From assembly GCA_002633005.1 (NCBI GenBank), contig NMRA01000383.1, forward strand, positions 260,951 through 324,950: a DNA stretch of 64,000 nt, given 5' to 3'. Below, one piece after another: positions 24,669-57,079 of the stretch (the first letter of the stretch is position 1; each line of letters begins with the position of its first letter). The translations under genes were made by a program, and so were the position numbers. This DNA comes from Phoronis australis. Lineage: Eukaryota > Animalia > Phoronida. Under the pieces are notes generated by a model. It saw only the letters and a program-made list of their open reading frames with translations, searched no databases and had not been told where the DNA came from.

Positions 24669-24934
24669 GGCACGCAGGGGACCAGCAAGCCTTGAGGACA
24701 AAATATGAGTCTGCGCAAACACTTGTCGGTGACCTAAGGTCGACCATTGTCGGCGCAAACGATTTATTTAATCCCAGCGAAATACCTTTTGCGCTTACTG
24801 TCGACCCGACGTGCAACCAGTGAAAGCGGCGACAACATTTTAGAGATTTGGTGATTTTACTAAGAATTCTTCTCATGTAAAGCCAGACTAAGCGTTCTGA
24901 GAGCCGGGTTCATGTGTACGTTTTTCGTATTGAA

Positions 24935-25754
24935 ATGTCAATTGATCGTGGCCAAGGACAAGGTAGGCCTAATGTGAAATTTCCGATGACGATCGCTCAG
25001 TCACGGACTGAGCTGGCGTGTTCGCCTGCACCACAGTTTGCCCACCATGCCCACGTCCATGTGAATGACACCGTTTCACAGGCATCTTACACGTTTCCTG
25101 TATTGGGACTGGCCGGTGAATCGACTTCGGCACTGTCCGAAAGCAGTCGTTTGGATAGTTACAGTGCAATATGCCGAGAGAAATCCTCTATGCCGTGTTC
25201 AGATGAACAGATCTCCCGCCACGAGTCGTGTTTACCTTGGCTCAGTGCTAGCTCAGGAACTTATTTGAACTCGCTGAATACCCAAGGTCATTCGAAGTAT
25301 TCTGCTCAGTCAGATGATGTTGAATTGGTTTCCAATGTCCACTCTTTCCCTAAGGATTTGAATTTACAACAGTTGGAAAACACTGATGGGTTGGGCCATA
25401 TAACAAAATCAAAACGACTCGGGTCAAGTACTCAAGATAACTTAGTGAAAACCGAAATTACCTCATTTTCAGCATTCCGTAGTTGTACTAGTAATAAGCT
25501 GTTGAAAGATGACAAGCACTGGGATCACAGTTGTGATGGTCAATCGCCGTCACTAAGTGGCTCATCTTCGAGGTCTCGGTCACCAACTGAGGTCGCTGAT
25601 CGGAACTCTGTTGTGGCACCATCTAGTACGTCGGATGTGGTGATCGAGGCAAGACATTGTGATACTACGCACATAAACGCTGGAGTTAGAAGTGATTATT
25701 GTTCCACCTCCAGATCCGCGGATTCTCATGGAAATTCAACGGATGCTGATTCTT
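24935..25754 (+). CDS. ftz-f1: FTZ-F1/NR5A nuclear receptor, putative coding exon 1 (Ser-rich A/B domain)
   Basis: Long Ser-rich ORF from ATG 24935 ending at a perfect T|GTAAGT donor. Phase 1 matches the acceptor at 41445. No recognisable motif, so linkage to the gene is inferred. Confidence 0.6.
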
Positions 25755-26389
25755 GTAAGTGACTATTTTCTTATCATAATTTTGTCAGTAATCACTTTTG
25801 TTGGTCACTGCATGGTTTTGAGAACCAAGCAATCAGTTAATAAAGTCCTGTCCATATACACAGGCTATTGGTGAACAACTTACACTTGTGCAACTTACCG
25901 TACTTTTAAGAGGAGTGTCCACACACGCACGCACGCATGCGCGCGCGAACACTCACACACACTCATCCGATAACTGCGGTAAGGCGCAAGTTGTCGCTCT
26001 GTGGATGCGAATACCATGGTGCAAAAGAAGACTAATCTGTATAATTACTGATAATTAGTTCTGCCTTCCCCCAGGTTTGTGATCACACGGTAATTAAAAG
26101 TGGCGTAAGTTTCCCCTGAACGACATACCCCACCTCGATAATGTGTAGTAAGTTGTTACAAGTAGGGAAAGATGCACTAGTTTCAATAGCATCCACATGG
26201 CTCCAACCCTTGCAACAACTCATTTCAGGAGTTCACTGTTGTAGCAGTGTTCTCCACATCTGGAAATCTAAACTGGTCGCACGCGTAAAAACTGCAATGT
26301 GCCGAAACCGCGCAGCGGTCTACGTTCTCCATAAGCTAGTGTGCAGTTTTTTGTGCACCTTATTTTTACCCACGCATTTTAATAGTAAT

Positions 26390-26844: not shown

Positions 26845-28026
26845 AGTAATGCACAGTAGTGCAAACAAACTGTGTTTATTCAACTTTTTATTTTTAAAAG
26901 TTGGACTTATTTATAAACATATCACATATGTCATAACCCAGTTGCTTAGTCAATGACTTTGAAATGGAAGTCTACAGTCCTGTTTGATACACTAGTATGG
27001 AGCTTTTAGGCTACTCAATAATTGTGATGTCAAATTGTCAATGTCAACTAAGTACAAAAAGTCTAACACAGAAGTAAACTTTTCACATGAACTAGACAGT
27101 CCAAGTGAAGTGTCTTTGCAAAGTCAGTCACATTTTTATGTCCTGATAGCAGAGTCTACGTTTTCCATCGGTCTGTAAGTGTAATGTCTTGCACAGCATT
27201 CTTATAGTCTGAATTCGATGTTCTGAAGCTGGTACAACATACTGAACTTCTGCACTACCAGAACTCTTGTAAAAACTTCACAATATGTGGGTCCTCCCTT
27301 ATGATTGCAAATTAGGTAGGGTAAACAAAACAATTCACGAGCGTTTTCCATCTACTTGGACGGGAGTGTTGGACCTGTTGATGACAACCAATATTTCTAA
27401 AAAGATATCAATTGAATTATCAAACGCTTGCAACTACAGAATTCCCATAATTTTCAGGATTGTCACAAACTCATTTTTCCAGATGAAAACCATCTATTCT
27501 TAAGTTAAAGCGAATTGTATTCAATTGTAATTTGTATTGCCTATGTTTGACATTGTCGGCAAAAATTCGGTTCACCGTTCGTGACACGGATATTTGCGAT
27601 TCGTTGACCGAGCCCGGCAATATCATCACCGTCCGGCCCTGGATTATCTGTCGTATCTGCATCTGAGTCAACCTTAGTATATGAAACAGACTCGCTTTTT
27701 AAAATAATCCTTAGGTTTAGCTTTGCTTTTGCGCGGCAGACGACATTTCTAAGTATGTAGAATGCGCATGTCAATCGGTCGGGAAGACAGGATAGAATTC
27801 ACTAACGTAAGGACCAAGCTGGGTAAACAAGAGTCTGCGAGAATACGCGAGATATTACTGCTTGATTTCAATGAGATCACGTGATTTTGGCTGCAATTTC
27901 TCAGCTCGAGACACATATATTTTGAACTTTATTCAGTGACGTCACCCGCTGTCCCATATTTCGAAATACTCCACGGAAACGGCCAATGTCACACACGGGC
28001 GGCACGGCTACTATTGAGCTTGCGAA

Positions 28027-28196
28027 TGTTGATTAGAATCGCTTCCATGACCAGACTCTATTTATCATTACAGACTCATATATCACTGCTGAGCATGCGC
28101 AGTGTCTTTTCTCTGCCCTCCACGTTTCATAGTGCGTAGTTTGTAGACGTGTATTTTATAGCTCTCAATAAATCAGTTATGGATCGCAAATCAACA
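28027..28196 (+). repeat. 5' LTR of the copia element (170 bp)
   Basis: TGTTGATT...AATCAACA 8-bp terminal inverted repeat, AATAAA at 28167, directly followed by the PBS. Confidence 0.85.
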
Positions 28197-28210
28197 GGTT
28201 ATGGGCCCAG
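28197..28210 (+). promoter_or_regulatory. Primer-binding site for the tRNA-iMet half-molecule (classic copia type)
   Basis: GGTTATGGGCCCAG is complementary to the anticodon-arm region of initiator tRNA-Met. Confidence 0.9.
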
Positions 28211-31200: not shown

Positions 31201-31734
31201 ACCGTGGACCCCTACACTGGTTCTTGGGAATAGATTTCTATCGCTTACCTGACGGCTCATACATGATGAGTCAAGAACGTTGTGTTGAGACGATACTCAA
31301 ACGTTTTGACATGTACGAGTGCAAGCCTGCACTGACACCTGTAGACACTAGTGCGATACTTGCCAAATCGTCAGACGAGGAACACGCTCAGTTTCTCAAA
31401 CTAGGATTTCCCTACCGTCAAGCCGTAGGAAGTCTAGTTTATCTCGCGAATGCCACACGCCCGGACATCTCTTGGACATTGTCAAAATTGTCACAGTTCC
31501 TCGACAAAACTGGATCGGCACACGTGACCGCTATAAAGCGCGTATTGCGATACCTCAAAGGGACCAAAACGTTGGCGCTTACTTTCAGAACAACGAATAG
31601 TCTGTTAACAGGATACTCCGACTCGGACTGGGCAGGAGACGTCGATGATCGTCGATCTACTTCCGGTTTTATCTTCACGCTTAGTTCGACAGCCACGTGC
31701 TGGGCACAATCTTTGTTTTACTCACGACTTTTCA

Positions 31735-31788
31735 TGGTAGCAGAGCAAGGTTACGATCCTCGGACCTCTGGATTATGGGCCCAGCTCG
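31735..31788 (-). pseudogene. Retro-copied partial mature initiator tRNA-Met (positions ~23-76 including CCA)
   Basis: TGGTAGCAGAGCAAGGTTaCGATCCTCGGACCTCTGGaTTATGGGCCCAGCtCG is the reverse complement of invertebrate tRNA-iMet as I recall it, with 3 mismatches. Lacks the 5' end and A-box. Confidence 0.9.
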
Positions 31789-33014
31789 TGGCTGTCGAAC
31801 TAAGTGTCCAGCCAGTTTTGCCCACATACTGTTTTTGAACACCCCGTGTCAAGAATAGCATAGTTCTTGGTTTCTGTCAGCAAAACTGTGTCATTGTCCA
31901 GTGACCAGTCAGAATATTATGTAACTACAGGATATAAACACATTCTAATATAGTTATCAACATCAGTGCTGTAAGTTCCCACACTGGGTGCATGTTACCA
32001 TGACACCAACACATGATTGACAGGTTACTCATACGTAGGCCCTACCTGCGTGTTGAATCCCGCTGCTTTCTTTGGCCATTAGAAACGAGACACATATTGA
32101 AAGAAGCTCCTATGTTACTTGTCGGCCTTTCCACGTCACGATTGCCTGCCGGGACATTGCGCGCAAACAGCGGGACCGACCAGTGACGCAGTGCGATATA
32201 GTGTAGGTGATATAATAGGATATAATCTAGACATTTTGCATGTAAAATAAATGTGTTTTCCACCACAAAGTTAGTCTACTCAGAATGAATTTAAATGTCA
32301 CTGTTTTGTGACGTTTTTATCACATATTGATGCCGTGGTTCGAACTTTTCTTCTTGATTGACGACTGGCTCATGACCGCTTACCCCCCCCCCCCCGATTC
32401 TTGTCTTACTTCTTTGCCGAGCATGTTTTGCACAACAGGAAGTGAAAATGTTATTGAGTCACGGAGTGTCGACTATAAACATCTCAAACACAAAAAAACA
32501 CTTGAATTAGTTTTTCAAACTTTACAACTAATTTTAAAACTGCTTCTGACTCAGAACTTGAAAGCTAGCCCTTGATATCAGCTGTGACCTCTGCAACACG
32601 TGAAGCTTGCACGCGCACTTTTGTAGTGTGACCGCTTGCAATCCAAATGGAGTGCTGCATGGTCACTGGTCGTCTGCGCACTACAGTTCTAACAAACTAA
32701 CAAGACCGCAGGATGGCATGGGTCTATTACTCAGCAATTTTTTACATTTAATTGTGAATGACTAATCTGAGAGCAACAGAACCTTTGTTGGGATCATCCG
32801 CTGTTCTGAAGTTTTTACCGTCGTTTAGTGACGTGACGTTAAAGCTATTTGAAAAGTGCTACACGTTCCGAGTATGTGTGTCGTGTGAGGACTTAGATCA
32901 CAAGGTAATATTAACTGCCCAGGGCGGTTGTCTGTCGTAATAAGCGCCCATGTTCGGTTAACCACCCACCCTGGATTTCATGAAGTTTCACGTTTAAGCG
33001 CCCATGTCTGATAA

Positions 33015-33260
33015 TAAAAATAAAAAAAATAATTGCAGGCGGTCTGATACACGTTGTACCAGACGTGCGCAGGCCTCGCATGTGGGCCCATTGCACTGAT
33101 CACCTGGAAATATTTTTATGCTTTATTAATATATGGTTAAAACCGAGCTGAGGAGCTAGAAACCTGACTCAAGGGCTTAGCAGTGTAACCTGGTGGGACT
33201 TGAACCCACGACCTCGAGCAAAGAAAGCGGGCACTTATCAACCAGGCCACACTGCCTCCT
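33015..33260 (-). mobile_element. tRNA-derived SINE, copy 1
   Basis: Minus-strand head GGAGGCAGTGTGGCCTGGTTGATAAG...GGTTCAAGTCC (A and B boxes), T-rich tail, 14-bp TSD CCCATGTCTGATAA. A closely related copy is at 56854-57079. Confidence 0.9.
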
Positions 33261-34420
33261 CCCATGTCTGATAAACGTCCACCCCCAATTTTTTGGGTTT
33301 GCCAATTTAACCGCCCAGGGCTTTAACGCGAACATTTGCGGTAGTAGCGTCAACCATGATCCATCATTTCGTTCTTGAAGTCACTTTCTGAGTTTTTAAA
33401 AATCACAACCATATTATTTCGAAGTTACAGCCCTCCAAGCCCGTGAGAGCAAGCACACAATACTGCGTCTTTCGCTCCGTGTCTTTACTGCAAGGAGTCA
33501 ATACTCTGAAAATACAATCTTCGCAGTAATAACCCTTCTGTGTTACAACTCATCCATCTTAAAGTCTTATTTTAAAGGGCATTCTAGTTCTAAATCTTAA
33601 AAATATACCAAATTAAGTAAAAATCAACACAGCATAATGTTCAATCCTTTCTGTTATCAAACGCAAAGCCTTTTTTAGCGCAGTTTTGTACCTCGGCCGA
33701 GATCAGACAATTATCGACTTTTCCCGTCTATTTCTGTGACCTGAGTTCCTGTGTGTCAGTTCATGAATGATTCCTGAATGCCAGCCATGTTGTCCTTGAA
33801 AACGTATTGACGTCACCACGAGCGTAAATGCGTTGTTGATTCCCATTTTGGTTCTTTTTATACAAACTTGATTATTTATTGTTCTAATTTTACCTGTTCT
33901 TTGCGTATGACGAATGGTATTTAATGCATTATTATAAGTTTGATGGACCGTCGCAAAGTCTACCGCATAGCCACCGCTCGGCTACTGAGGTCAGCCCTGA
34001 CTCATCACGAGGGTATGCCAAATTTCAGCAACAGTACCCGGGTAGTGGCGGTGCGATCTTTGGGTCGGAATTGTGAGTGACGTGTTTATTTAAACTTTCT
34101 TCGACTACGGATTGTGTATTGGTCATGGGATAGGTAGTGCTTGGGTCCCTATAATTTATTCTAACCATTCAATAAGGGTTAAAAACGTGTGCTTCTAGGA
34201 CTTTAAAGAAAATAATTGCGTATTCATTGATGGCGTCAAAGATATAGCAGTGTTTAAAAAAAGAATATCATGCCTAATAGAAATGCACACAACATTCAGT
34301 TTAGATTTGCCAGCAGGCCTTACGCAGTGTGTATCCTGGGCTTCGAAATGGACGCCCAGGCACAGGCATCTATAAACACCAAAACGTTAATAAACAATAC
34401 AACTGCTTGGTCAATATTCA

Positions 34421-36198: not shown

Positions 36199-38494
36199 TT
36201 CTCCAAATGATGGAAGGTTTGTGCCATAGACATTTTGACCCAAAGCAGTACCACAACCGGTTAAATAGGTACTATAAAATCTCTCCAGTAAGGGACAGTG
36301 AAAATAACTATTTTGCTCATTAATTAAGAATTTTAATTCGTAAAGAACTTGTACCAAGTTTTAGAAGTAGGCAACATTCACCATCCCAAATTCAAGAATT
36401 ATGATCAACAGCAAACTATTGTTGTCCTCAGGATGCATGGAAAGGTTAATGGCAGCTATTTGTGATGATTTTATGAACTGCCCAATCAGTTTTCAGATTC
36501 TTTTGATACACAACATAAATTCAATGTTGAAATATGACAAATATAATGGTGAACATTAAAATCGACTGTGTCCCAATCCTCAGAGTAAAGAAAATTCAAT
36601 TTCTGCTCGAATTTCTGTGTGACCAATCATTGCCAAGTTTTTTTTCCTGAGGCCAGAAGAGTTCTTTTGTGTTGTTCGTCTGTTTGGTTCATGGTGCAAT
36701 GGCCCAATCCAATAAAAGATTTTCCATATTGGTGATCTCTAGAGAAATTCAATCACTATAGAGGTTCATTACCGTGGTAATTTAAAAGCAGTCAGGAATG
36801 CCACTGTCCGCCCCTCCAATTGTTTAATTATAGGGTCGACCCAGATTGAAATCCTGCGCAGTGGGATGTATATGGAACACGAGTCTTTCATCTATGAATA
36901 TTTCACGAGGTTCTGCCTTTTTTGTAAGCCACATGTCTTGAACACATCCACTACCAAAAGAAATTGTAGGAACACCGCATTTATCCACCTTCACTCTTAT
37001 CAGGCTTCTATTGTGAGTCAGCATGCGTGAATAATTGGCTGATAAGCCACCTCTGGAACCACTTTTGGCCGAATGGATTGAATGGATGACCAGGCCATAA
37101 AATGGTAATTAGTCAAGACCAGTTAATAATGGAACAAAGAATAATGTCGTAGCATCACCTAGCCTTGGTGGAAAGTTGTATACTGTATTGGCTCTAATAA
37201 ACGCTTAGAAAAATTCATTTCACGGGGAGGGGACGCTTATTGTAGCCTACGGCAGTTGAAACCCGGTTTCCCAAACGGGTAAAATCGGAAGCTAGGATTC
37301 ATCAAATTTACGCTCTGTGACGTATTTGTAGCCTATGACAGTCTTTCTACAAAATTGTGGTGCATTGCCATCAACTTCCGTTGTTAAATTACGATAATTT
37401 TTCAAAAAGTTTTGCTCATCACAGGGCGAAAACTTGCCGACTGATGCGTCGCTGAATCGCGATCGTCAATAGAAAAACTTGGAACTCTTGAATAAAAATA
37501 TAGTTTCGACTCAACAAATTACCTGAAGTCTTCCTTATGTTTTACAATTTTTAAAGTACATGTGGAGTCCAGATTAATTGCGATTAAGTCCAAATATGCG
37601 CTACATCGTACCCCACAACACGAGAAAAATCTCTGGATGAACGCACATGTTGTTGTCACGTGACGTTTGTTTTGAAGTTCGTCTGCGTATGAGAGTGAGT
37701 GAGCGTGCATGTGCGGGTCATCGATGACAGACTTTTTTGTTACAAAAGGCGGAGGATTATGCAAGAAAATGGCGTTTACTAGATTGTTTTTCACTTAAAC
37801 GGCTGCAACATGCAAGGTAAGTGCTGGTTAACTCACAGATTTTGTGTGCACAGGCCGACGGTCGTTAGCTCTACCCGGCCGTGGAGTATTAACAGTCCAA
37901 GGCTCGATCTACATCATGTTGGGGACGAGGTGAACTACCCGGGCTGTGTGAAATGTTTGGGTCTAACGGAGACACTGACGCAGTGGTCAGCCAGCTCACT
38001 GTATCAAGACTATAGCCAAAATCCAAATTCGTTTCATCGTGTCCCTGTCAATAATAACGGCCTGCTTAAGTTTCTTAATTTTCGTACTTCAGGAACATAA
38101 CAATCACTTGTTTTGTACACATAACGCGCACGCCGCAGATCACATATCGGAAATTGCCGATTTGACGGATGACAATGAATGAGCTCAGTGAAATTAAACA
38201 ACGTTGTTTTACAGCTTGTAAGATTCATAATAAACGTATTTTGAATATTGAAATGCATGTGTTCCAAAATATAAATAACTTGGGTCCTATATTTTTGCAT
38301 TCGTGCGCGCCAAATGAAAGTAATCGTGAGTGTTGCTGTGTTGCAAAATCTCTTATCCTGGGCCGATTTGAAAAATTCAAAGTTATACTCATATTTGTTT
38401 TCGCTCCTCTTTTCAAATATTACAGTAAAAACTACGTAAAACTCTGTCCATAAAAAGTACAGTCTGCTAGCTAGATTGTAATCAGCTGATCATA

Positions 38495-39194
38495 CAGGCG
38501 TCCTCACCTTCTGATCGTCCCCAATACACTACATATAATACTACAAGGTATGACACTCCCGACTAGAAATTCCACGGGTGCTTCACTTCAGCCGTCCATA
38601 GCAAAAATAAAACTCAATAAATTTACACAAAACAGAGGTTCAACAAACCATGAAGAATTGTTCTTTCTCCCAATACCATTCATGGTGTCCTGTTCTGCCG
38701 ACTTCGTAAGAAATTCGCTGTCAAAGAACAAAAATGTTCACAAAAATCCCCCACACACTTTCATCGTGGGCCGCTCGAGGTCAAGGACGGTACGGAAATC
38801 GCCGGTGAGTTACGGAAGTACTCAGTAGTTATTCTACTGGCGGCTAAGTGTAGAGTTATCGACATTGTGACTTTGTGCGACAAACCGGCAATTTCCGTAC
38901 CGTCCTTGACCTCGAGCGGCCCACGATGAAAGTGTGTAGGGGCTTTTCGTGAAATTTTTGTTCTTTGACTGTGAATTTCTTACGAAGTCGCCGGAACAGG
39001 ACACCGTGAATGGTATTGGGAGAAAGAACAATTCTTCATGGTTTGTTGAACCTCTGTTTTGTGTAAATTTATTGAGTTTTGTATTTGCTATGGACGGCTG
39101 AAGTGAAGCACCCGTGGAATTTCTAGTCGGGAGTGTCATACCATGTAGTATTATATGTAGTGTATTGGGGACGATCAGAAGGTGAGGACGCCTG
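38495..39194. mobile_element. 700-bp foldback non-autonomous DNA transposon (hAT- or P-like, 8-bp TSD)
   Basis: About 320-bp near-perfect inverted arms starting CAGGCGTCCTCACC, a ~65-bp spacer, and TGATCATA on both flanks. Confidence 0.93.
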
Positions 39195-40189
39195 TGATCA
39201 TATCCGCATGAGTGAAGCCAATTATCCTTGCTCGTGACTCTATGACTAGAGCAGCTTGGCAGCATCCGTTTGATCGTGAGCTGAGCGCGACTCAGCCAAG
39301 GTGGATAAATACGGTTTAGTTCAATTTTCCAAGCCCCACCGTTTACCTTGACAAGCGGGGTTAGGACCAATATTATTTAGTGGGAGTGTTTATAGCATGA
39401 TTAGTACACCCCACCACACAACAGTGGAACTTTGGTGGAAATGAATATTAGGAACAGAATGGCCGAGGTAGGGGCATTCTGTTGAAGCTTTTGAACATCT
39501 AAATCTGCGTCATCCATTGATGAATCTGGCAACAAATGGAAAAGTTATAGTGTCCAGACTTGAAAATGTCTGTCTCTTGGTAACCTGTTGATCGATAACA
39601 GCACTCTCATGAGTTTTCGCTCAGGTGTTCTGTACATTGAGTCTTTGTGTCATATTCATGTCTGATGCACTGCAAAAAGTCAGAGGACTTGCACTGTTTT
39701 TTAATTAAAGCCATATTTCTATATTTCTTGATTAATACATTGTCTTTTTATTACTTAATATCGTCTGGTACCTAAAGGAATAAAATTACAACTGGAAAAA
39801 TATAATAAGTTAGTGAAATGCACTTTTAATGATACTGTAGGGTTATAATTACTGTTTCTGCACGGGTATTTGCCACCCTGGGTTCAACACACCCCAGTAT
39901 TCCACCCAGCCCATGGTGCAAGCCATCCTTGAGTAGAAACCACCTCTCGGTCTAATATAAGCCATCCCTAAGTCTAAACCATCCCTGAGTCTAAACCAAT
40001 ATGACACAGGTATGTGGCATATAGTCTCATAAAAATTGTCTTGTTAGCAAATAAAGCGTGGCAACCGTGTAAAAATATGGCATGCCATCATGGAAAGTGA
40101 TATTCTCCACAGAATGAAGAAGAATGTGGTAAATATGTAGAAATATGTTTCAAACTGTACAGATGGAATGTACGATAGAACTCTTCAAT

Positions 40190-56538: not shown

Positions 56539-56853
56539 GACCATTACCAAAACAAGCATGGTCCGCTCCTGGAGACATATCAGGCCTATCTGTCTGATAG
56601 AGTGGAAACCACTTAATGTCATACCTGTGGGTTTGCCGTAAATTATCATAAAAAGCAGGATTATCCAGTAAGTGGGTTTTGACAGTGCTGTGACCGTAAC
56701 CACAGCTAATCGAGCTAAGTGGAGAGTTTCCGAGTAAGACAGTCATGTAAACAGGAAGCAACTGATTTATACCCCTGGCGCGGAGATCCGAGAGGGCAAA
56801 TGAACTGATTAGTTTTAACATAGAAATACAAATTGTACCCATGCTGGTAAGCA

Positions 56854-57079
56854 AAAAAATTGCAGGCGGTCTGATACACGTTGTACCAGACGTGTGCATT
56901 CCTCGCATGTGGGCCCATTGCACTGATCACCTGGAAATATTTTTATACTTTATGGTTAAAACCGAGCTGAGGAGCTAGAAACCTGGCTCAAGGGTTTAGC
57001 AGTGTGACCTGGTGGGACTTGAACCCACGACCTCAAGTAAAAATTTGGGCACTTATCAACCAGGCCACACTGCCTCCTC
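56854..57079 (-). mobile_element. tRNA-derived SINE, copy 2
   Basis: Same family as 33015-33260; TSD TGCTG(G/A)TAAGCA. Confidence 0.9.

What the first reader, a model, noticed from the sequence alone, without database searches (positions are those of the whole stretch)
31680..31804. Fossilised reverse-transcription intermediate: copia RNase H joined to a foreign U5-like 29-mer, a cDNA of mature tRNA-iMet, and a snap-back inversion
Seen: copia homology stops after ...SSTATCW (~31705). A 29-nt unrelated segment ending in CA follows (31706-31734), then the reverse complement of initiator tRNA-Met starting at the CCA end (TGG, 31735). After that, 31779-31804 is a 25/26 inverted copy of copia 31680-31705. 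The tRNA (positions 23-32, CGTGCTGGGC) and the RNase H sequence share a 10-nt microhomology exactly at this switch. Read on the minus strand, the order is tRNA-CCA, TG-start 29-mer, copia minus strand, which is the geometry of a tRNA-primed minus strand. Established: eukaryotic tRNA genes generally do not encode CCA, and LTR plus-strand synthesis normally copies only about 18 nt of the primer. Inference: a full-length tRNA primed on another element's PBS (TGGTAGCAGAGC, GalEa-type), and RT switched onto this copia RNA. The primer was then copied into DNA, and the strand folded back via the microhomology before integrating without a 3' LTR.
Basis: partly seen in the sequence, partly recalled or inferred. 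Interest (0 to 1): 0.85.

Follow-up and report, generated by a model that had tools for sequence, protein, structure and literature searches.

The report
Jumping gene over-copied its tRNA primer
A broken jumping gene is joined to a scrambled piece of a second, unrelated jumping gene whose copying enzyme likely ran past its normal stop into the tRNA that primes it, left one wrong letter exactly where such tRNAs usually carry a methyl mark, and folded back on itself; it is a single dead copy, and no sequencing read at hand spans it.

Summary
The left copia stops at 31681, not 31705. 31682-31734 is the LTR end (U5) of a second, multi-copy, GalEa-like copia; 31735-31752 is simply that family's 18-nt PBS, so CCA alone proves nothing. 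The window leaves the family at exactly 31753 (tRNA position 58), runs on along the tRNA to position 23, and has T for the A found in 60 of 60 tRNA-iMet genes, the error reverse transcriptases make at m1A58. Best reading (0.65): a plus-strand strong-stop cDNA that read through its primer, folded back and jumped, later joined to an independent copia by deletion or break repair. No contig (0 of 59) or RNA read (0 of 50) from other samples spans it. Retroviral and yeast precedents exist, and this scan noted similar A58T over-copies on other DNA before (unreviewed).

The parts
28027..28196 (+). 5' LTR (170 bp, TG...CA) of the left copia; no second copy in the window
   Evidence: X4 record 24 starts to match exactly at 28027 with other letters before it; no second hit
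28197..28210 (+). PBS of the left copia, complementary to tRNA-iMet positions 27-40 (anticodon-arm priming)
   Evidence: against fetched tRNA genes; priming at the anticodon loop described for Ty5 and Drosophila copia in PMC10886601
28179..31681 (+). decayed gag-pol of the left copia (several stops and frame changes), cut just after the start of RNase H
   Evidence: Pfam gag, protease barrel, integrase, RVT_2; tblastn; intact-copy contigs leave the window at 31681
31682..31734 (+). 3' end (U5, ends in CA) of a second, multi-copy LTR family; 31681 is shared with the left copia
   Evidence: contigs at depth 84-785 against 7-54 on the left copia; several different flanks behind 31734
31696..31699 (+). 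4-letter patch equal to tRNA positions 23-26, where the LTR family has one letter; it perfects the inverted repeat
   Evidence: 3 letters left out at 31696/31697 in the displayed contigs of all 3 DNA runs and in 12 of 13 RNA reads (tables 3-4)
31735..31752 (+). the donor family's normal 18-nt PBS (tRNA-iMet 76-59), GalEa-type
   Evidence: X2 record 6 matches 31706-31752 with 0 differences and then goes elsewhere; 20 RNA reads do the same; first 12 letters equal the GalEa PBS in PMC3587641 and PMC5445492
31753..31788 (+). over-copied tRNA-iMet, positions 58 to 23; wrong letters at 58 (31753), 39 (31772) and 25 (31786)
   Evidence: A58 in 60 of 60, T25 in 60 of 60, C39 in 58 of 60 tRNA-iMet-like gene copies
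31789..31803 (-). inverted copy of the U5 stretch 31681/2-31695; doubles as the homology to the protease gene
   Evidence: at 31799-31800 the window has the U5 letters, not those of the family's protease (table 3)
31791..31898 (-). aspartic protease fragment (DTGC motif) of a GalEa-like copia, inverted relative to U5
   Evidence: HMM from copia polyproteins, iE 1.3e-11; tblastn; family contigs on 31789-31850 at the same depth as the PBS-gag contig in X2, 42.0 against 42.1
31899..31992 (-). unresolved: decayed gag linker and zinc knuckle of the donor, or LTR-related sequence; right end of the insert not defined
   Evidence: weak tblastn extensions only, no HMM hit; 18 of 19 letters of 31959-31941 match one X4 contig directly before U5 (read by eye)

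Best explanation
This is a single dead chimera: the end of a GalEa-like copia LTR, its primer-binding site extended 36 letters into tRNA-iMet, an inverted copy of the LTR end and an inverted piece of the same clade's protease gene, likely made when reverse transcriptase read through m1A58 of its primer, folded back and jumped templates, and likely joined afterwards to a separate, truncated copia. Steps: (1, inferred) plus-strand strong-stop synthesis copied U5 and the 18 primer letters, did not stop at position 58, put A opposite m1A58 and went on to position 23; (2, inferred) the overlong end could not pair with the PBS for the second transfer and paired instead with its own U5, which matches tRNA 27-35 at 8 of 9; (3, inferred) after about 15 letters it moved to the protease region, which shares a 10-letter block with this part of U5, and copied it backwards for at least 100 letters; (4, inferred, weakest) this dead-end cDNA reached the chromosome and was joined to the left copia without a target-site duplication, either as a patch at a break or through a deletion ending at the foot of the hairpin; the 4-letter tRNA patch in the left arm would come from one arm being copied off the other (or from a brief hop of the minus strand onto its primer).
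For: All four donor pieces (U5, PBS, tRNA, protease) are things found together in one retrotransposon particle (established biology of LTR elements). The window leaves the family at the exact base where the 18-nt PBS ends and that base is position 58, A in 60 of 60 genes and T here; background divergence on the left copia is 118 of 6393 letters, 1.8% (12 displayed contig pieces), so a chance change at this one base is about 2 in 100 (about 8 in 100 at the local rate of 3 in 36). m1A58 makes the plus-strand stop, and minor products run further (PMC8599865, PMC13191261 passages); m1A causes misincorporation, with low C in the m1A-A context (PMC4787781 passages). PBS-gag and protease contigs have equal depth in X2. 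Left copia and protease relatives are separate RT groups, 23-33% identical, split with support 100 in a quick tree of 31 rows. No target-site duplication found between 28022-28026 and the candidate right ends. cDNA intermediates are captured at breaks in yeast (PMC11372161), and 5-34 bp fold-back inversions form at breaks (bioRxiv 2024.03.07.583931).
Against: No independent read support: depth over 31772-31787 is zero in X3, X4 and X6, and in X2 comes from one 83%-alike contig starting at 31738, so 0 of 59 contigs and 0 of 50 RNA reads span the tRNA part; these are other samples (share of words at most 0.40), and human-like tRNA sequence is filtered out, so this is absence of support, not refutation. 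The organism's own tRNA-iMet gene was not read: X3 contigs cover 31756-31769 at depth 63-95 but their letter at 31753 is not displayed. Two further differences (25, 39) are not at position 58 and are unexplained (chance of 2 or more in 35 at background is 0.14). m1A58 in this organism is assumed, not measured. That U5-PBS and protease come from one family rests on depth and clade, not on one contig. The right end is unresolved.
Confidence: 0.65

Rival explanations
1. One reverse-transcription event made the whole 4-kb chimera: the minus strand primed on the GalEa-like PBS copied 53 letters of U5 and switched onto the left copia's RNA; the plus strand later over-copied the primer, folded back and jumped to the protease. 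One tRNA-iMet could bring the two RNAs together, since the two PBSs pair with different parts of it (59-76 and 27-40).
For: Polarity fits (tRNA, U5 antisense, copia antisense on the minus strand). Both elements use the same tRNA at non-overlapping sites. The left arm carries the true tRNA letter at position 25, as a hop of the minus strand onto its primer would give. The U5/copia joint lies right at the foot of the stem.
Against: The clades are distant and would need co-packaging; the left copia has a complete LTR start, needing a further strand transfer; only 1-2 letters are shared at the joint; no target-site duplication was found for the unit.
Confidence: 0.15
2. DNA-level template switching during break repair: a genomic LTR-PBS switched onto a genomic tRNA-iMet gene through the 15 shared letters (59-73), then back to U5 and on to a neighbouring protease copy; no RNA template was involved.
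For: The PBS supplies CCA, so no mature tRNA is needed for it. Short fold-back inversions with imperfect microhomology arise at breaks by host polymerases. tRNA-gene-like contigs exist in the DNA runs.
Against: Does not predict the wrong letter at position 58; needs a tRNA gene and a retrotransposon brought together in trans, where a particle supplies both.
Confidence: 0.1
3. Assembly or library artefact: a chimeric clone or read (for example from extrachromosomal cDNA or amplification) was assembled into the scaffold.
For: No spanning record; the window is a gapped assembly (N runs); both flanks are repeats.
Against: An assembler cannot invent a tRNA copy continuing in register from a PBS with an error at position 58; the four joints are base-precise with short homologies; the laid samples differ from the window throughout.
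Confidence: 0.1

Closest known systems
Over-extended plus-strand strong-stop products of HIV-1 (P1, P3-P5; PMC13191261 and PMC8599865, passages read)
   Same: Synthesis runs past the 18 primer letters when m1A58 fails to stop it; the long products cannot complete the second transfer.
   Different: Those are minor or in vitro products stopping at positions 55, 54 or 37; here the copy reaches position 23, folds back, jumps, and is fixed in an animal genome assembly, from a Ty1/copia element.
Reverse-transcribed tRNA-Gly beside deleted HIV proviruses (PMC12220202, abstract and passages); MMLV circle with a tRNA between the LTRs (Colicelli and Goff 1986) and HITME recombination (Konstantinova 2006), both seen only as cited there
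   Same: A cDNA of a mature tRNA sits at the breakpoint of a truncated LTR element, without target-site duplication.
   Different: There the tRNA is a non-primer species, nearly full length; here it is the element's cognate primer, in register with its PBS, with an error at position 58 and a fold-back.
Ty1 cDNA intermediates captured at double-strand breaks and fold-back inversions in yeast (PMC11372161; bioRxiv 10.1101/2024.03.07.583931; passages)
   Same: LTR-end cDNA with extra letters found only in cDNA is patched into chromosomes; short inverted duplications form through imperfect microhomology.
   Different: Laboratory events at an induced break; the passages read do not describe read-through of the primer past position 58.
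GalEa clade of Ty1/copia (PMC3587641, PMC5445492, PMC11889832; passages)
   Same: PBS and DTGC protease motif of the donor.
   Different: Only about 160 letters of the donor are present, rearranged; no RT to place it on a tree.
Helenus/Ajax/Cassandra small-RNA-derived TRIMs (PMC10886601, passages) and tRNA-derived SINEs
   Same: tRNA-like sequence linked to LTR sequence.
   Different: Those are multi-copy mobile families with the tRNA-like part inside the LTR; this is one copy, lacks tRNA positions 1-22 and has no second LTR.

Membership tests
GalEa clade (donor) | PBS of 12 conserved letters complementary to the tRNA-Met 3' end right after the LTR | tested here: met
   31735-31746 equals the PBS printed in PMC3587641 and PMC5445492
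GalEa clade (donor) | DTG(C/A) protease signature | tested here: met
   minus-strand translation; HMM hit 31898-31791
GalEa clade (donor) | RT motifs KARLVA and YVDD, and placement on an RT/RNase H tree with named GalEa elements | tested here: inconclusive
   donor RT not in the window; among 24 long relatives of a protease hit 17 have KARLVA, most have HVDD rather than YVDD; no named reference element was in the tree
GalEa clade (donor) | LTRs bordered by TG(T)...CA with a 5-bp target-site duplication | tested here: inconclusive
   3' CA at 31733-31734 met; LTR start absent or unresolved; no duplication found
Ty1/copia superfamily (left element) | LTR, PBS, gag, protease, integrase before RT/RNase H | tested here: met
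Hydra clade (left element) | RT/RNase H groups with Hydra1-1/1-2 | not tested
   label recalled; no named Hydra reference among the hits; only shown to be far from the donor's relatives
Over-extended plus-strand strong-stop cDNA | tRNA complement continues in register beyond the 18-nt PBS of the family | tested here: met
Over-extended plus-strand strong-stop cDNA | misincorporation opposite m1A58 | tested here: inconclusive
   T for A at 58 against 60 of 60 genes of other eukaryotes; this organism's own gene and its modification were not read
tRNA-derived SINE or TRIMp3 | dispersed multi-copy family with an intact internal Pol III promoter (boxes A and B) | tested here: not met
   positions 1-22 (box A) are missing; no record continues from U5-PBS along the tRNA to 31788 (human-like filter may hide some)
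Genomic tRNA-iMet gene | complete cloverleaf without encoded CCA, followed by a T-run | tested here: not met

The most novel reading that the evidence does not exclude
One initiator tRNA bridged the RNAs of two distant copia clades, its 3' end on the GalEa-type PBS and its anticodon arm on the other element's PBS, so both were packaged together; reverse transcriptase hopped from U5 onto its own primer, back, across clades onto the second RNA, and later read through m1A58, leaving a germline record of inter-clade recombination and of tRNA methylation in one insertion.
Probability: 0.12. Interest if true: 0.8.

Novelty: new variant of a known kind. Interest (0 to 1): 0.47.

Why it matters
If real, the locus is an in vivo germline record of a failure known mainly from retroviral test-tube work: read-through of m1A58 with its typical error. 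It means over-extended PBSs in animal assemblies can report tRNA modification and how particles rescue dead-end cDNAs (fold-back, jump, capture), which can be counted in any genome. It also shows a U5 that resembles both its primer and its own protease gene, a built-in trap for template switching. As a single, non-functional, read-unverified copy whose theme the scan has already met elsewhere, its own weight is moderate.

Tried and rejected
No whole genome is held, so genome-wide counts were impossible. ARAGORN and Rfam at E up to 1: no hit. Exact-pattern scans: junction 22-mer in viral contigs 0; LTR end plus PBS in prokaryote genomes 0; PBS 16-mer in viral contigs 10 matches, none continuing as tRNA or preceded by a like LTR end. 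Among 103 matches to tRNA 40-57 in metagenomes, 60 were within 6 differences of the commonest gene and were counted; the other 43 (chance matches, other Met-tRNA variants, rows shifted by one letter) were dropped; none of the 60 is an over-copy. Rejected: SSTATCW as RNase H; CCA as proof of a mature tRNA (PBS supplies it); SINE; 31959 or 31962 as a proven integrase end (the stretch also reads as decayed gag linker, and no duplication was found). P0124 (a mucin-like hit) is a chance match and was not used. The careful tree did not finish; the quick tree is cited. Colicelli and Goff 1986 and Konstantinova 2006 are not held. Searches listed no paper on an over-copied primer with a position-58 error in an animal genome assembly (listings only; subscription papers and supplements not seen). 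The scan's index held no look-alike of 31681-31960 and nothing for the GalEa fold-back words.

Full report
Observation. The letters described are in the window. The arms 31680-31705 and 31779-31804 match at 25 of 26, far above resampled sequence (best 14 in 60 trials), and the strand folds at z -8.8. To get a tRNA reference from data, I scanned metagenomes for an 18-letter stretch of the window: 96 loci, 103 matches, 60 of them within 6 differences of the commonest tRNA-iMet gene. The window equals the closest genes from position 73 to 23 except at 58, 39 and 25. Position 58 is A in 60 of 60, 25 is T in 60 of 60, 39 is C in 58 of 60, and 0 of 60 are followed by CCA.

The left element. It is a decayed Ty1/copia with gag, protease, integrase and RT, a 170-bp 5' LTR from 28027 and a PBS complementary to tRNA-iMet 27-40, the anticodon-arm priming described for Ty5 and Drosophila copia (PMC10886601, passages). 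No second LTR lies in the window. The label Hydra clade is recalled and untested.

The donor. From 31681/2 to 31734 the window matches a multi-copy LTR end: depth rises from 7-54 to 84-785, and several different flanks follow 31734. The family has one letter where the window has four (31696-31699), and these four are tRNA positions 23-26. After the LTR end the family has an 18-letter PBS: X2 record 6 matches 31706-31752 without a difference and then goes elsewhere, as do 20 RNA reads of X6. Its first 12 letters are the GalEa PBS (PMC3587641, PMC5445492, passages). So the TGG is ordinary PBS and is no proof of a mature tRNA. The informative fact is that the window parts from the family at 31753, tRNA position 58, with a wrong letter, and follows the tRNA 35 letters further.

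The right side. The minus strand reads as an aspartic protease with the DTGC motif. A search of cluster representatives gave 7 hits, 6 of them with this motif region; one of them found 34 longer relatives, mostly copia polyproteins, and an HMM built from the knuckle-bearing ones among 31 of these hit 31898-31791 at iE 1.3e-11. Their RTs are 23-33% identical to the left element and form a separate group in a quick tree of 31 rows. Family contigs match 31789-31850; at 31799-31800 the window has the U5 letters instead, so the arm is U5 first and protease after, switching within a 10-letter block that U5 and the protease share. In X2 the PBS-gag contig and the protease contig have depth 42.1 and 42.0, which fits one family but does not prove it. 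Beyond about 31900 the evidence conflicts: weak gag-linker and knuckle likeness against an 18-of-19 match to letters lying directly before U5 in one contig. I leave the right end open.

Mechanism. In LTR elements the plus strand stops after 18 primer letters because of m1A58; without the stop, the extra letters cannot pair for the second transfer (PMC8599865, passages), and minor products reach positions 55, 54 or 37 (PMC13191261, passages). Reverse transcriptases that pass m1A often insert a wrong base, with little C in the m1A-A context (PMC4787781, passages). I infer that such a product reached position 23, paired with its own U5 (8 of 9 letters shared with tRNA 27-35), copied about 15 letters, jumped to the protease region and copied it backwards. 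A chance change at exactly this base has a probability near 0.02 at background divergence (118 of 6393 letters in 12 displayed pieces) or 0.08 at the local rate. How the piece met the left copia is least sure: there is no target-site duplication and only 1-2 shared letters at the joint. A patch at a break, as for Ty1 cDNA in yeast (PMC11372161) with short fold-backs (bioRxiv 2024.03.07.583931), or a later deletion ending at the foot of the hairpin, needs fewer rare steps than a switch between distant clades. The four tRNA letters in the left arm show that one arm was copied from the other or that the minus strand hopped onto its primer; the data do not tell which.

Against. The runs found hold at most 0.40 of the words and differ from the window throughout, so they are another individual or other copies. 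No record spans the tRNA part: 0 of 59 contigs and 0 of 50 RNA reads, with the caveat that human-like tRNA sequence is filtered out and the tables are cut. The organism's own tRNA gene was not read, and the letter at 31753 in X3 contigs that cover 31756-31769 is not displayed. The differences at 25 and 39 are unexplained.

Comparison and novelty. tRNA cDNA at the breakpoint of a truncated LTR element is known from HIV (PMC12220202, abstract and passages, which also recounts the MMLV and HITME cases that I could not read). Six paper searches listed nothing on an over-copied primer with a position-58 error in an animal assembly; these are listings of an open library, supplements unseen. This scan's notes hold two unreviewed findings of the same A58T kind in other genomes, which I did not check; I had reached the reading before the look-up. 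What this locus adds is a copia donor, read-through to position 23, a fold-back onto U5, a jump into protease, and a partner element that uses the other half of the same tRNA. Verdict: new variant of a known kind, interest 0.47.

Noticed in passing
window 28179-28210: The left copia's gag start codon lies inside its 5' LTR and the reading frame runs through the PBS; many relatives share the same peptide there, so the PBS is also coding sequence.
   Followed up: partly
run X2, record 7: A 1452-letter contig holds tandem tRNA-iMet-like pieces, the second starting at 31734 (with TGG) and running 32 letters, past position 58; an X3 contig also starts at 31734 with other letters before it. Possibly further over-copied primers or CCA-bearing tRNA copies in this species.
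   Followed up: no
window 31700-31752, run X6: The donor family is transcribed; first mates lie on + about 10 to 1 over U5-PBS, which in most stranded libraries would mean antisense RNA; library strandedness is not on record.
   Followed up: no
window 31956-31962 and 28027-28033: The first 7 letters of the left LTR recur inverted at 31956-31962, like an element end, but no target-site duplication flanks the pair.
   Followed up: partly
window 27000-28004 and 32150-33000: Both flanks are high-copy repeats (depth 10 to several hundred times the left copia), unclassified; 33026-33261 has a 91% copy at 56853-57079.
   Followed up: no
window 38494-39195: Nested long inverted repeats (257-nt arms, 94%), like a fold-back or MITE element.
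   Followed up: no
window 24881-25762: A 293-codon serine-rich open frame without a Pfam match, probably an exon of a host gene.
   Followed up: no
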